Source: Thermus caldilimi (GTDB lineage Bacteria > Deinococcota > Deinococci > Deinococcales > Thermaceae). From it: a DNA stretch of 32,000 nucleotides. This document shows positions 15,926 to 16,070 of this stretch, piece by piece (within the stretch, counting starts at the first letter, position 1; every line of letters starts with the position of its first letter). The position numbers and the translations under genes were made by a program. Location: contig NZ_CP038452.1 of the NCBI RefSeq assembly GCF_004684245.1, forward strand, positions 822,796 through 854,795, given 5' to 3'. The notes beneath the pieces are model-generated. The model did not search any database. It had not been told where the DNA came from and was given only the letters and a program-made list of their open reading frames with translations.

Positions 15926-16070
15926 GCTTGCGGGGCGGGCTGAGTGGTCGAGGGCTATCCTGGCCCTTGTGGTCGTCTGGTAGACTGGCCCCATCCCCAT
16001 AGGCGTCGTTGAGGTTGGCCCTTAGTGGTCGGGTGTAAGAGTGCCATAGGGGAGGCCCGCCCCGTATATG
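15926..16070 (+). ncRNA. Candidate IS110-type bridge RNA (two-loop guide RNA) programmed for the trpC/hisA junction and the phage ends
   Basis: Noncoding and on the same strand as, and upstream of, the IS110-family recombinase. The outer stem is CGGGGCGGGC (15931..15940) paired with GCCCGCCCCG (16055..16064). Four guide-like matches are present: GGGCTATCCT (15952..15961), CTGGTAG (15977..15983), CGTTGAGGT (16007..16015) and GTGTAAG (16033..16039). Each pair is separated by near-identical spacers. The ends are approximate. Confidence 0.6.

What the first reader, a model, noticed from the sequence alone, without database searches (positions are those of the whole stretch)
15926..16070. Candidate bridge RNA whose four guide segments match both prophage-host junctions: an IS110-type RNA-guided recombinase apparently acting as an inovirus integrase
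The noncoding gap 15923..16122 lies upstream of the IS110-family recombinase gene and on the same strand. It contains four segments in this order:
1. GGGCTATCCT (15952..15961) is identical to the host flank plus core at the left junction (9730..9739).
2. CTGGTAG (15977..15983) is the reverse complement of the core plus host flank at the right junction (CTACCAG, 17061..17067).
3. CGTTGAGGT (16007..16015) is identical to the last 9 nt of the element (17052..17060).
4. GTGTAAG (16033..16039) is the reverse complement of the core plus the first 5 nt of the element (CTTACAC, 9738..9744).

This is the LTG-RTG-LDG-RDG order and the same-sense/antisense alternation described for IS621/IS110 bridge RNAs (Durrant et al. 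2024; Hiraizumi et al. 2024). The core dinucleotide CT also matches IS621. A 10-12 bp stem closes the region (15931..15940 with 16055..16064), and a TAGAAT hexamer sits just upstream.

The unusual point is the donor. The two donor ends recognised by segments 3 and 4 lie 7.3 kb apart and enclose a complete filamentous-phage genome rather than a 1.2-1.5 kb IS. IS110-like transposases are known on Neisseria filamentous prophages. I am not aware of a bridge RNA shown to program integration of a phage.
Basis: partly seen in the sequence, partly recalled or inferred. Interest (0 to 1): 0.95.

Follow-up and report, generated by a model that had tools for sequence, protein, structure and literature searches.

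The report
Bridge-RNA-guided integrase of a filamentous prophage
A 7.3-kb filamentous prophage in a Thermus genome carries an IS110-type recombinase and a folded non-coding RNA gene whose four short guide segments spell out both prophage-host junctions, which indicates that this virus family picks its chromosomal integration site with a programmable RNA rather than a protein.

Summary
Prophage-free relatives read GGGCTATC-CT-ACCAG with a single CT, exactly as predicted.

The non-coding region 15930-16064 is one copy of a conserved RNA gene. It lies next to the IS110-type recombinase in 24 related Thermus, Meiothermus and Calidithermus inovirus loci, including the isolated phages phiOH16, Zuza8 and Zuza27.

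The consensus fold has two internal loops. The variable loop segments covary with each locus's own attP and host flanks, with the strand polarity and segment lengths described for IS621 bridge RNAs.

The recombinase matches the solved bridge recombinases ISCro4 and IS621 at E about 1e-35.

The donor is the whole phage. A TTGACA box at the right end and a TACACA/TACAAT box at the left end form a promoter only in the circular form. That promoter points into the replication gene.

A second, distant inovirus group (Neisseria Nf-like, from saliva) shows the same design.

It was already published that these Thermus phages carry an IS110 transposase and form proviruses. I found no paper linking a bridge RNA to a phage.

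Transcription of the RNA and recombination itself are untested.

The parts
9018..9729 (-). Host hisA. Its start codon lies 9 nt from the crossover.
   Evidence: Pfam His_biosynth, 6e-72. Translation. Adjacent to trpC in the prophage-free relatives.
9730..9739 (+). attL, host half: left target GGGCTATC plus core CT (9738-9739). Identical to the LTG.
9740..17060 (+). Integrated inovirus, 7,321 bp, flanked by CT on both sides. All genes lie on the + strand.
   Evidence: Empty-site comparison. tblastn against phiOH16 genes. PHROGs. Zot domain.
9740..9745 (+). TACACA, the -10 half of a promoter that is complete only in the circular form. It overlaps the right donor (RD, TACAC, 9740-9744), the mirror image of the RDG.
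   Evidence: Read from the sequence. The equivalent TTGACA-18-TACAAT (11 of 12) spans attP in phiOH16. The arrangement is conserved in all loci.
9753..11126 (+). Gene II, replication endonuclease. Its ATG lies 7 nt after the -10 box.
   Evidence: 54% identity to phiOH16 gpII over the full length. phrog_33635, 3e-146.
11123..11929 (+). Genes V (11123-11458), VII (11451-11543), IX (11537-11644) and VIII (11780-11929).
   Evidence: tblastn against phiOH16. PHROGs.
13309..14148 (+). C-terminal half of gene III (adsorption protein, TSP3 repeats). It is preceded by an in-frame TGA at 13306-13308. The region 11930-13308 holds only short ORFs.
14414..15792 (+). Genes VI (14414-14842) and IV, the Zot-type assembly ATPase (homology from 14842; ORF 14776-15792).
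   Evidence: Gene IV is 84% identical to phiOH16.
15701..15922 (+). Conserved small ORF of 73 aa: a hydrophobic N-terminus followed by a four-Cys motif (..CPxCGMPH..CPxVAYGxCPYDPRRG.YRQRR*). Function unknown.
   Evidence: Conserved at protein level in 13 of 13 loci. No PHROG hit.
15920..15925 (+). TAGAAT, a -10-like box 5-7 nt before the 5' stem of the RNA. It also contains the small ORF's stop codon.
   Evidence: The TAnnnT pattern and its spacing are conserved in all loci. No -35 was recognised.
15930..16064 (+). Candidate bridge RNA. It has an outer stem, a target-binding arm, a CCCC/GGGG stem and a donor-binding arm. A U-rich tract follows.
   Evidence: Consensus fold. 95% of cells are paired, against 56% or less when partners are slid. 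The covariance model gives a single window hit, 15922-16076, 122 bits.
15952..15961 (+). LTG (5' side of loop 1): GGGCTATC plus CT, same sense as the left host flank plus core.
15977..15983 (+). RTG (3' side of loop 1): CTGGTAG, the reverse complement of core plus right host flank (CT-ACCAG).
16007..16015 (+). LDG (5' side of loop 2): CGTTGAGGT, same sense as the last 9 nt of the prophage.
16033..16039 (+). RDG (3' side of loop 2): GTGTAAG, the reverse complement of core plus the first 5 nt of the prophage.
16123..17043 (+). IS110-family recombinase, 306 aa. DEDD RuvC-like domain plus Tnp domain. Motifs [18 protein letters not shown] and YQSG.
   Evidence: Pfam PF01548 and PF02371. PDB matches ISCro4 9t56 at 6.6e-36 and IS621 8wt6 at 6.2e-35. 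E48, D90, D93 and S234 are invariant in the clade.
17040..17045 (+). TTGACA, the -35 half of the split promoter. It overlaps the recombinase stop codon. It lies 15 nt plus the CT core from the left-end -10 box once the phage is circular.
   Evidence: Conserved as CTTGACAA in nearly all loci and in a canonical Truepera IS.
17052..17067 (+). attR: left donor CGTTGAGGT (17052-17060), core CT (17061-17062), right target ACCAG (17063-17067).
17002..17847 (-). Host trpC. The insertion falls in its last sense codon, so ...ALVG* becomes ...ALV plus a 19-aa tail read from phage DNA.
   Evidence: Pfam IGPS. Translation. Empty-site comparison.

Best explanation
The element at 9740-17060 is a temperate filamentous phage of the phiOH16/Zuza group (Thomixvirus-like). 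Its integrase is an IS110-family bridge recombinase (16123-17043), guided by a roughly 135-nt bridge RNA encoded just upstream (15930-16064).

Shown here:
- The RNA gene folds into two arms, each with an internal loop.
- The 5' side of loop 1 (LTG) has the sense of the left host flank plus the core CT. Its 3' side (RTG) is complementary to the core plus the right host flank.
- Loop 2 does the same for the phage ends. LDG matches the last 9 nt of the phage. RDG matches the core plus its first 5 nt.
- All four guides change together with the att sites across relatives.
- The empty site carries one CT and the occupied site carries two.

Inferred, by analogy with IS621:
- In the double-stranded circular phage form, loop 2 pairs with attP (..CGTTGAGGT-CT-TACAC..), which lies between the recombinase gene and gene II.
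- Loop 1 pairs with attB (GGGCTATC-CT-ACCAG) at the trpC-hisA junction.
- A recombinase tetramer exchanges strands at the CT.
- Integration splits a promoter. TTGACA stays at the right end and TACACA at the left end. Gene II, whose ATG lies 7 nt after the -10 box, would then be driven strongly only from the circular form.
- Excision would use the same RNA across attL and attR, each of which matches half of each loop.

Compared with a canonical IS110, 6.2 kb of phage genes lie between the left end and the bridge RNA.
For: Segment matches and their uniqueness. Shuffle test, 0 of 20,000. Empty site in two relatives.

Free phages phiOH16, Zuza8 and Zuza27 carry the same RNA scaffold, with donor guides matching their own attP. 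There are four different attP sequences, and the mismatches are G:U-compatible.

All 24 loci fit one scaffold, GGYCG-[LTG]-CTGGCC..GGTCG-[RTG]-ACTGGCC..GCG-[LDG]-TGGCC..GGTCG-[RDG]-RGTGC. Examples of right and left junctions matching their own guides: L099 has RTG 8/8 and LDG 9/10; L101 and L102 have 8/8 and 9/10; L103 has 7/8, 10/10 and LTG 9/10. In the guide-by-junction matrix the diagonal scores 16-18 against about 10 for unrelated pairs. Permutation of target guides against host flanks gives 136 of 177 observed, a mean of 78, a maximum of 115, and 0 of 20,000 reaching the observed value.

The consensus structure has both guide pairs in internal loops. 95% of cells are paired, against 56% or less when partners are slid, and the outer stems show compensatory changes.

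The guide geometry matches Durrant et al. 2024: the 5' side pairs with the bottom strand over 8-9 nt, the 3' side pairs with the top strand over 4-7 nt, and the core is included.

The recombinase is homologous to ISCro4 and IS621 and keeps the DEDD and Ser motifs.

The covariance model weakly finds the target-binding arm at the expected place in canonical multi-copy Truepera and Trueperaceae IS elements. Their right end shares GCTTGACAAATC with the phage.

A promoter spans attP in phiOH16, at 11 of 12 consensus positions.

phiOH3 is phiOH16 minus 838 bp. The deletion removes loop 2 and most of the recombinase gene but leaves attP.

A distant lineage (L097) with an inverted recombinase gene still has LDG and RTG matching its right junction.

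Nf-like saliva inoviruses show the same covariation: 54 of 66 observed against a permuted mean of 40, with 4 of 20,000 permutations reaching it.
Against: - There is no expression data, and no RNA-protein binding or recombination assay.
- Rfam has no matching family, so there is no independent model hit.
- The -10-like box has no recognisable -35 and overlaps a stop codon, so its conservation is partly due to coding.
- The stems next to the loops never vary. They are therefore neutral evidence for the fold.
- Several loci do not fit cleanly. At the L099 left junction the LTG match sits 3 nt out of register, the core reads GT, and the TTGACA box is missing. The L105 right flank does not fit its LTG (5/9). 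L091 sits in a site that fits a sister phage's guides better.
- The LDG does not pair with the second core base in any member.
- Gene III in this copy looks interrupted, so this particular prophage may no longer make virions.
Confidence: 0.85

Rival explanations
1. An ordinary 1.2-kb IS110 element (RNA gene, recombinase gene and short ends) is nested at the end of an inovirus prophage. The phage itself integrated by another route, such as host XerCD or another integrase.
For: The RNA-recombinase-right-end module resembles a canonical IS. A Truepera IS shares the GCTTGACAAATC right end and a similar target arm.
Against: - The RDG matches the phage's far left end, 6.3 kb upstream of the RNA gene, in the window and in the other integrated loci. 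No matching left end lies next to the RNA gene.
- The module is part of the packaged circular genomes of three isolated phages. There attP sits between the recombinase gene and gene II.
- phiOH3 lost the module through an irregular 838-bp deletion, not through a clean excision.
- No other integrase was found among the element ORFs scanned.
- Integration sites differ between loci and follow loop 1.
Confidence: 0.03
2. The four segments act at the DNA level. They could be recombinase-binding subterminal repeats or a copy of the att sites, with no functional RNA made.
For: There is no transcript evidence, no clear -35 and no Rfam hit.
Against: - The segments sit exactly in the internal loops of a conserved fold, and the outer stems show compensatory changes.
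- The alternation of same-sense and antisense segments and their lengths match the RNA guides of IS621.
- The homologous enzymes IS621 and ISCro4 are RNA-guided, and IS621 needs its RNA in vitro.
- Several guide-site differences are G:U-compatible, which matters only for RNA-DNA pairing.
Confidence: 0.05
3. The mechanism is as described, but this copy is a fossil. The guides record a past integration and the prophage can no longer excise or form particles.
For: Gene III is recognisable only in its C-terminal half, behind an in-frame stop, and 1.4 kb upstream of it is broken into short ORFs. Another prophage, L099, shows clear decay at both ends.
Against: - The recombinase ORF is full length with its catalytic motifs.
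- The RNA scores 122 bits against the family model.
- Both junctions, both cores and both promoter halves are intact.
- N-terminal receptor-binding domains of adsorption proteins often diverge beyond recognition, so gene III may simply be different.
Confidence: 0.3
4. The matches are chance matches of short words in a GC-rich genome.
For: The two 7-mers each have one other reverse-complement occurrence in the window.
Against: 0 of 20,000 shuffles reach the observed total. The matches lie exactly at junctions defined independently from empty sites. The same relation holds in more than 15 loci with different sequences.
Confidence: 0.005

Closest known systems
IS621, ISCro4 and other IS110-group bridge recombinase systems (Durrant et al. 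2024, PMC11208160; Hiraizumi et al. 2024 and 2026)
   Same: - Homologous recombinase with DEDD and Tnp domains.
- RNA gene upstream of the recombinase gene, on the same strand.
- Two internal loops, with target guides first and donor guides second.
- The 5' side is same-sense over 8-10 nt and the 3' side is antisense over 7 nt.
- A CT core is included in three of the four guides.
- One CT in the empty site and two in the occupied site.
- A promoter forms across the circle junction.
   Different: - The donor is a 6.5-7.3-kb autonomous virus, not a 1.2-1.5-kb IS.
- The left end is separated from the RNA gene by all the phage genes.
- The junction promoter faces the phage replication gene rather than sitting directly in front of the RNA.
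- The RNA has its own -10-like box.
- An outer stem encloses both arms, instead of a separate 5' stem-loop.
- The donor loop is as variable as the target loop. In half of the family it reads the opposite DNA strand.
- In one lineage the recombinase gene is inverted relative to the RNA gene.
- The hosts are thermophiles.
Thermus inoviruses phiOH16, Zuza8 and Zuza27 and their proviruses (PMC11437467)
   Same: The gene order is the same and the recombinase is 56-61% identical. [quoted passage not shown] It proposes transposase-mediated integration.
   Different: The paper does not mention a bridge RNA, att sites or guide matching. The window's phage integrates at a different site (trpC-hisA). It is about 0.8 kb longer, in the gene III region.
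Neisseria Nf/MDA-type filamentous prophages with an IS110-like transposase (Kawai et al. 2005, as cited in PMC11437467)
   Same: The layout is the same: Zot, non-coding region, transposase, att, replication gene. In Nf-like saliva inoviruses a donor-loop motif upstream of the transposase gene covaries with the sequence after it. A variable 8-mer also covaries with the right flank.
   Different: The recombinase is only about 31% identical and the RNA scaffold is different. I did not examine bona fide Neisseria prophages or their left junctions.
Expanded, cargo-bearing IS110 elements (bioRxiv 10.64898/2026.08.14.744561)
   Same: IS110 ends and a bridge RNA mobilise many kilobases of extra DNA. 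Guide matches to flanks are used as evidence.
   Different: There the cargo is mostly resistance and plasmid genes. The passages I read mention no inovirus or prophage. Here the 'cargo' is a complete virus replication and assembly module, and the element also spreads as a particle.
Inoviruses that integrate through host XerCD at dif (the CTXphi type; from general knowledge)
   Same: A filamentous phage becomes a prophage without encoding a tyrosine or serine integrase.
   Different: No host recombinase site is involved here. The integration sites differ from locus to locus and follow the RNA guides.

Membership tests
IS110-family bridge recombinase / bridge RNA system | Recombinase with an N-terminal DEDD RuvC-like domain and a C-terminal Tnp domain carrying the catalytic serine | tested here: met
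   PF01548 at 5e-21 and PF02371 at 6.5e-23. Aligns over the full length with ISCro4 (9t56) and IS621 (8wt6) at E about 1e-35, sharing the GxDxS, EATS, KTDxxDA and SG motifs. E48, D90, D93 and S234 are invariant in the clade.
IS110-family bridge recombinase / bridge RNA system | Structured non-coding RNA gene next to the recombinase gene, with two stem-loops that each carry an internal loop | tested here: met
   RNAalifold consensus on 15 sequences. 95% of cells are paired against 56% or less when partners are slid, and five pairs show compensatory change.
IS110-family bridge recombinase / bridge RNA system | [quoted passage not shown] The 3' side is complementary to the right half-site (4-7 nt). 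The core dinucleotide is included. | tested here: met
   LTG is 8+2 nt, RTG 5+2, LDG 9 and RDG 5+2. Definition taken. Exception: the LDG does not pair with the second core base.
IS110-family bridge recombinase / bridge RNA system | Guides covary with the target and donor sequences across orthologues | tested here: met
   Donor guides. Target guides: 136 of 177 positions match, against a permuted mean of 78, with 0 of 20,000 permutations reaching the observed value. Matrix. Three loci fit imperfectly (L099, L105, L091).
IS110-family bridge recombinase / bridge RNA system | Conservative recombination at a core dinucleotide: one copy in the empty site and one on each side of the insert | tested here: met
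   L107 and L108 against the window.
IS110-family bridge recombinase / bridge RNA system | A promoter is reconstituted across the joined ends of the circular form | tested here: met
   TTGACA-18-TACAAT spans attP in phiOH16. The two halves are conserved at the ends of all loci. No complete promoter is found at the integrated right end. The difference from IS621 is that this promoter faces gene II, 6.2 kb upstream of the RNA gene.
IS110-family bridge recombinase / bridge RNA system | The RNA is transcribed, binds the recombinase and is required for recombination | not testable with these tools
   No expression or biochemical data are available here. Only a conserved -10-like box and a U-rich tail are seen.
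IS110-family bridge recombinase / bridge RNA system | Match to a curated RNA family model | tested here: inconclusive
   Rfam 15 gives nothing at gathering score or at E up to 10. Either no such family is in the library or the RNA is too divergent. My own model finds the target arm of canonical Truepera IS copies at 18-20 bits, E about 1e-3 in the 505-kb search (7.7e-05 in the 31-kb re-search).
Insertion sequence in the strict sense (compact IS110, about 1.2-1.5 kb, transposition genes only) | The element between the recombining ends holds only the recombinase gene and its RNA gene | tested here: not met
   The ends enclose 7,321 bp carrying eight phage genes.
Filamentous phage (Tubulavirales; Thomixvirus-like) | Replication endonuclease, ssDNA-binding protein, major and minor coat proteins, adsorption protein and Zot-type assembly ATPase, in inovirus order | tested here: met
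   tblastn against phiOH16 genes II, V, VII, IX, VIII, III (C-terminal half), VI and IV. PHROGs. Zot Pfam domain. The N-terminal half of gene III was not recognised.

The most novel reading that the evidence does not exclude
IS110-carrying filamentous phages in general use a bridge RNA as the specificity module of their lysogeny integrase. This would cover the Thermus, Meiothermus and Calidithermus group and, independently, the Neisseria Nf/MDA-like group.

On this reading, attB choice is written in about 15 nt of RNA and has been rewritten many times in nature. At least ten target-guide sets appear among the 24 loci. attP has also been rewritten, including switches of the DNA strand that is read.

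The split junction promoter would make the replication gene depend on excision. That would give a repressor-free form of lysogeny control.

A more speculative extension rests on a 2026 report that IS621 can excise as a single-stranded circle. Such prophages might then be released directly in the genome form that inoviruses package.
Probability: 0.7. Interest if true: 0.88.

Novelty: new variant of a known kind. Interest (0 to 1): 0.8.

Why it matters
Bridge RNAs are known as the guides of small insertion sequences. Here the same two-loop RNA appears to serve a virus as its integrase specificity module. Three things would follow.

1. It would be the first natural case, as far as the searched literature shows, of RNA-programmed prophage integration. 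It would explain how related inoviruses land in different, precisely defined sites. It would also give testable attB predictions for three cultured phages.

2. The family is a natural experiment in reprogramming. Both loops vary, including a flip of the donor strand, while the scaffold stays fixed. That is useful for understanding and designing bridge editors. The enzymes come from hosts such as the hyperthermophile Thermus thermophilus and so may be thermostable.

3. The same design in Nf-like phages would bear on how the meningococcal disease-associated prophages choose their sites.

Tried and rejected
- **Rfam.** Scans at gathering score and at E up to 10 gave only noise.
- **Exact-protein look-ups.** Look-ups for the window's own hisA and recombinase, and for P0007 and P0014, found nothing on record.
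- **Genome-contig scan.** The best hit was a 37%-identical multi-copy Truepera IS. Integrated relatives therefore had to come from the viral and metagenome scans and from protein look-ups.
- **Promoter scan.** The consensus scan found no complete sigma-70 promoter in 15600-17200, so the RNA's promoter remains a -10-only guess.
- **First scaffold pattern.** My first strict sequence pattern missed a third of the loci, and a relaxed version contained a length error. The corrected pattern fitted all 24.
- **L099 left junction.** I could not reconcile it with a simple crossover and had no look-ups left to fetch an empty site.
- **Nested-IS reading.** Rejected. See the rival explanations.
- **Predicted attB of phiOH16, Zuza8 and Zuza27.** I could not search for these in T. 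thermophilus HB8 or HB27. No chromosome collection remained available, and the similarity search needs at least 30 nt.
- **Literature.** Searches combining bridge RNA with filamentous phage, prophage, Neisseria, Thermus or lysogeny found no paper making this link. The library does not cover most subscription journals.
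Full report
**1. The observation**

The four segments are in the sequence exactly as described.
- GGGCTATCCT (15952-15961) and CGTTGAGGT (16007-16015) each occur in the 32-kb window only in the gap and at one junction.
- The two 7-mers, CTGGTAG and GTGTAAG, are the reverse complements of the sequence across the other half of each junction. Each has a single additional reverse-complement hit elsewhere.

I took 12-nt half-sites from the junctions and summed the longest matches in the 200-nt gap. 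The total is 33. None of 20,000 dinucleotide-preserving shuffles reached it (maximum 31), and the best of 1,236 other 200-nt windows scored 26. This test ignores order, strand and adjacency to the crossover, so it understates the case.

**2. The junctions are real, independently of the guides**

The flanks are hisA (9018-9729, minus strand) and trpC (17002-17847, minus strand). Two prophage-free relatives have trpC and hisA 4 nt apart. One is a metagenome scaffold whose hisA is 96% identical. The other is a genome whose hisA is 91% identical.

Across the predicted site they read CAACATGGGGCTATC-CT-ACCAGCGCCC and ..GCGGCTATC-CT-ACCAG.., each with one CT. The window has a CT on each side of a 7,321-bp insert. 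The crossover lies in the last sense codon of trpC, 4 nt before its stop codon and 9 nt before the hisA start codon. As a result trpC gains a 19-residue tail encoded by phage DNA.

**3. What the insert is**

tblastn with the annotated genes of Thermus phage phiOH16 finds II, V, VII, IX, VIII, the C-terminal half of III, VI and IV, in that order on the + strand. PHROGs and Pfam agree.

The last gene is an IS110-family recombinase (PF01548 plus PF02371). It aligns over its full length with two solved bridge recombinases: ISCro4 (9t56, 6.6e-36) and IS621 (8wt6, 6.2e-35). It shares the GxDxS, EATS, KTDxxDA and SG motifs.

Its close relatives (45-92% identity) all come from Thermus, Meiothermus and Calidithermus. 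One is the phiOH16 transposase, and several sit on contigs of about 6.5 kb.

One caveat applies to this copy. Only the C-terminal half of gene III is recognisable. It follows an in-frame TGA at 13306-13308, and the 1.4 kb before it is broken into short ORFs. This copy may be defective, or it may carry an unrecognisably different receptor-binding part.

**4. The free phages give the first decisive comparison**

In the circular genomes of phiOH16, Zuza8 and Zuza27 the order is IV, non-coding region, recombinase, about 50 nt, II. The non-coding region aligns with the window's gap. It shows a fixed scaffold with four variable inserts.

The two inserts of the second arm match the 50-nt stretch after the recombinase gene of the same phage:
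- phiOH16: GTGGTGTAGT and CTTGTAAG, against GGTAGTGTAGT-CT-TACAA.
- Zuza8: TCACGGTAGT and TTGGTAAG, against TCACGGTAGT-CT-TACCA on the other strand.
- Zuza27: GCATGGTAGT and CTTGGGAG, against GCATAGTAGT-CT-CCCAA on the other strand.

The single mismatches are guide G opposite DNA A. That is a G:U-type pair with the strand the guide would bind. The second arm therefore reads attP, and attP is the joint between the recombinase end and the gene II end of the phage.

**5. Integrated relatives give the second comparison**

I collected 24 loci in all from the viral and metagenome scans and from protein look-ups. All fit one scaffold: GGYCG-[LTG]-CTGGCC-N5-GGTCG-[RTG]-ACTGGCC ... GCG-[LDG]-TGGCC-N5/6-GGTCG-[RDG]-RGTGC.

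In the 'direct' class the right junction reads [LDG match]-CT-[reverse complement of RTG]. The left junction reads [LTG match incl. CT]-[reverse complement of RDG]. This class holds the window, phiOH16, L083/85, L084/103/104, L099, L101, L102 and L106.

| Locus | RTG | LDG | LTG |
|---|---|---|---|
| L099 | 8/8 | 9/10 | see section 11 |
| L101 | 8/8 | 9/10 | not available |
| L102 | 8/8 | 9/10 | not available |
| L103 | 7/8 | 10/10 | 9/10 |
| L106 | 7/8 | 10/10 | 8/10 plus one wobble |

In the 'inverted' class (Zuza8, Zuza27, L086-L095, L105) the same relations hold on the opposite strand.

A matrix of every guide set against every right junction has 16-18 on the diagonal and about 10 for unrelated pairs. 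I then located the junctions from phage-side sequence only and excluded the invariant core. Target guides match host flanks at 136 of 177 positions. Permuting guide sets among loci gives 78 ± 8 (maximum 115), with 0 of 20,000 permutations reaching the observed value. Some loci are close relatives, so the effective sample is smaller than 15. At least ten distinct target-guide sets are represented.

**6. The fold**

RNAalifold on 15 non-redundant sequences gives four elements:
- an outer stem;
- an arm with base stem, internal loop and a GGCC-N5-GGUC apical hairpin;
- a CCCC/GGGG stem;
- a second arm of the same design.

LTG and RTG are the two sides of the first internal loop. LDG and RDG are the two sides of the second.

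95% of cells form standard pairs, against 38-56% when the partners are slid by 1-3 columns. Five pairs, in the outer and connecting stems, show changes on both sides. The stems that flank the loops never vary, so they are uninformative.

The layout and the guide geometry are those reported for IS110 bridge RNAs: the 5' side is same-sense over 8-10 nt, the 3' side is antisense over 7 nt, and the core is included.

A covariance model built from the alignment finds one hit in the window, 15922-16076 at 122 bits. It also finds weak hits (18-20 bits, E about 1e-3 in the 505-kb search) at the expected position upstream of the recombinase gene in canonical multi-copy IS elements of Truepera and a Trueperaceae genome. 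Only the target arm aligns there. Those IS copies are about 1.2 kb, and their right end shares GCTTGACAAATC with the phage. Rfam has nothing to offer.

**7. Why the donor is the phage and not a nested IS**

- The RDG points to the start of the gene II end in every integrated locus where that end is available.
- The module is packaged in three isolated phages.
- phiOH3 differs from phiOH16 by an irregular 838-bp deletion. It removes the donor arm and most of the recombinase gene, but keeps the 5' stem, the target arm and attP.
- A more distant lineage (L096/L097, recombinase 39-41% identical) keeps the RNA gene after the Zot gene on the phage strand but has the recombinase gene inverted. Its right junction, TTGACA..TTGGGGTAT-CT-ACCCG, still matches its own LDG and RTG.

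**8. A split promoter**

Nearly all loci have CTTGACAA just inside the recombinase-side end. They also have a TAC(A/T)NT hexamer at the start of the gene II end.

In circular phiOH16 the scan reports TTGACA-18-TACAAT, 11 of 12 consensus positions, spanning the core. In the window the reconstructed joint is TTGACA-N17-TACACA, with the gene II ATG 7 nt further on. At the integrated right end no complete promoter is found.

This parallels the junction promoter of IS110 elements, but here it faces the replication gene. The -10 box lies inside the right donor in the direct class and inside the left donor in the inverted class. That probably constrains which donor sequences are allowed. That the promoter works as read is an inference.

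**9. How the RNA is made is not known**

A TAnnnT box (TAGAAT in the window) sits 5-7 nt before the 5' stem in all loci. It has no recognisable -35. Its first three bases are the stop codon of a conserved small ORF. A U-rich tract follows the outer stem, and the equivalent hairpin in phiOH16 is flagged as terminator-like. Read-through from the phage genes, all of which lie on the same strand, is an alternative source.

**10. A second inovirus family**

tblastn of the recombinase against phage records finds twelve 'Inovirus D_HF' genomes from human saliva and two from lemur saliva, at about 31% identity. They encode TspB-like and Zot proteins and have the same order: Zot, non-coding region, transposase, gap, replication gene.

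About 40 nt before the transposase gene there is a motif ACA(C/G)TATC-hairpin-..AAGG. The sequence after the gene reads TTGAC-N9-ACA(C/G)TAT-CT-T(A/G)TAT. The C/G difference is matched between the two places.

In 11 integrated relatives from IMG/VR, a variable 8-mer on the 3' side of an upstream internal loop is the reverse complement of CT plus the right flank, at 5-8 of 8 positions. Excluding the core, that is 54 of 66 positions against a permuted mean of 40, with 4 of 20,000 permutations reaching it. I did not examine left junctions or authentic Neisseria genomes.

**11. Exceptions**

- L099 (Thermus sp. PS18) lacks the TTGACA box. At its left junction the LTG 9-mer lies 3 nt out of register and the core reads GT, which suggests decay.
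- The L105 right flank does not fit its LTG (5/9).
- L091 sits in a site that fits a sister phage's guides better.
- L090 lacks one base at the right junction.

Off-target 'half-match' insertion is documented for IS621 and could account for some of these. Metagenome assembly artefacts could account for others.

**12. Comparison with what is known**

The mechanism proposed is that of IS621. The enzyme and RNA meet every sequence-level criterion I could test. The element fails the criterion of being a compact IS.

The Thermus phages and their proviruses, and the idea that the IS110 transposase integrates them by analogy with Neisseria Nf phages, are already in PMC11437467. IS110 elements with large cargo are in a 2026 preprint. 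Bridge-RNA-mediated excision is in PMC13626964 and in a 2026 preprint.

None of the papers found by eight targeted searches links a bridge RNA to a phage. The library is incomplete for subscription journals.

I therefore rate the finding a new variant of a known kind, with high interest. The comparative evidence is strong. Expression and activity remain to be shown.

Noticed in passing
window 15701-15922 (+); equivalents in L002, L003, L083, L087, L090, L093, L099, L101-L103, L105, L106: A conserved, unannotated small ORF of about 70-83 aa lies between gene IV and the bridge RNA. It has a hydrophobic N-terminus followed by RCPxCGMPHxLALQVKxxKRFCPxVAYGxCPYDPRRGxYRQRR*. In Zuza8 and Zuza27 this stretch is annotated as intergenic. 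There is no PHROG hit. Its stop codon is part of the -10-like box of the RNA gene.
   Followed up: partly
window 11930-14148: Only the C-terminal half of the gene III adsorption protein (13309-14148) is recognisable. An in-frame TGA sits at 13306-13308, and the 1.4 kb upstream is split into short ORFs in different frames. The prophage is about 0.8 kb longer than phiOH16 here.
   Followed up: partly
L096 931-1077 (-), L097 3375-3521 (-): In a more distant phage lineage (recombinase 39-41% identical) the bridge RNA gene stays on the phage-gene strand after the Zot gene. The recombinase gene is inverted, so the two genes converge. The L097 right junction still matches its own LDG and RTG.
   Followed up: partly
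L110-L138 (saliva inoviruses OR148970, OR148983, PP511689 and IMG/VR relatives): Nf-like inoviruses with TspB and Zot carry an IS110 recombinase about 31% identical, with the same synteny. A donor-loop motif upstream of the gene covaries with the sequence after it. A variable 8-mer covaries with the right host flank in 11 integrated copies.
   Followed up: partly
L111 3235-3250; L112 2611-2626: Two saliva inovirus genomes carry a second copy of the left-donor sequence followed by a different right half (AACAGTATC-TT-AGGC and AACAGTATC-CT-AAACGG). It lies 45-65 nt downstream of attP. Its meaning is unknown.
   Followed up: no
L109 (phiOH3) 23-161 compared with L001 (phiOH16): phiOH3 is phiOH16 minus 838 bp. 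It keeps the 5' stem, the target-binding arm and attP, but lacks the donor-binding arm and most of the recombinase gene. It has therefore lost the donor-binding arm and most of the recombinase gene, the parts the model needs for integration.
   Followed up: yes
Family-wide (table); attP of L002 and L003 compared with L001 and the window: Two donor orientations exist. In one class the guides read the strand of the recombinase gene. In the other they read the opposite strand. The TTGACA and -10 promoter halves keep their places in both. This is a natural rewriting of the donor loop that includes a strand switch.
   Followed up: partly
L099 3670-3700 and 10925-10945; L105 10880-10900; L091; L090: These loci fit their guides imperfectly. 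L099 has a left junction 3 nt out of register, a GT core and no TTGACA box. The L105 right flank does not match its LTG. L091 sits in a sister phage's site. L090 has a 1-nt gap at the right junction.
   Followed up: partly
L103/L104 4665-4690 and 10925-10985, compared with window 9715-9740: The Calidithermus timidus prophage sits one intergenic junction away from the window's site, in what appears to be the same conserved operon (trpC-hisA-small gene-recJ). Its left target has a similar form: CATGGGGATAGT-CT against CATGGGGCTATC-CT. Both lie just upstream of a start codon.
   Followed up: no
L093 right junction; L099 3660-3690: Some targets lie in palindromes. The L093 target, CGCCTAAGTATACTTAGGCG, is a perfect 20-nt palindrome. 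The L099 left target lies in the hairpin CCTAAAGTACACTTTAGG.
   Followed up: no
window 14842-15786: Gene IV (Zot-type) is 84% identical to that of phiOH16, while the other genes are 43-65% identical. This suggests mosaic exchange between these phages.
   Followed up: no
Genome-contig collection: The scan of species-representative genomes returned no Thermus, Meiothermus or Calidithermus locus for this recombinase. Yet NCBI assemblies that carry it were reachable through protein look-ups. Close relatives seem to be missing or masked in that collection.
   Followed up: no
L099 1944-3077: In Thermus sp. PS18 a tyrosine integrase gene with HTH and S24 peptidase genes lies directly upstream of the inovirus prophage. 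It probably belongs to a second, unrelated integrated element next to it.
   Followed up: no
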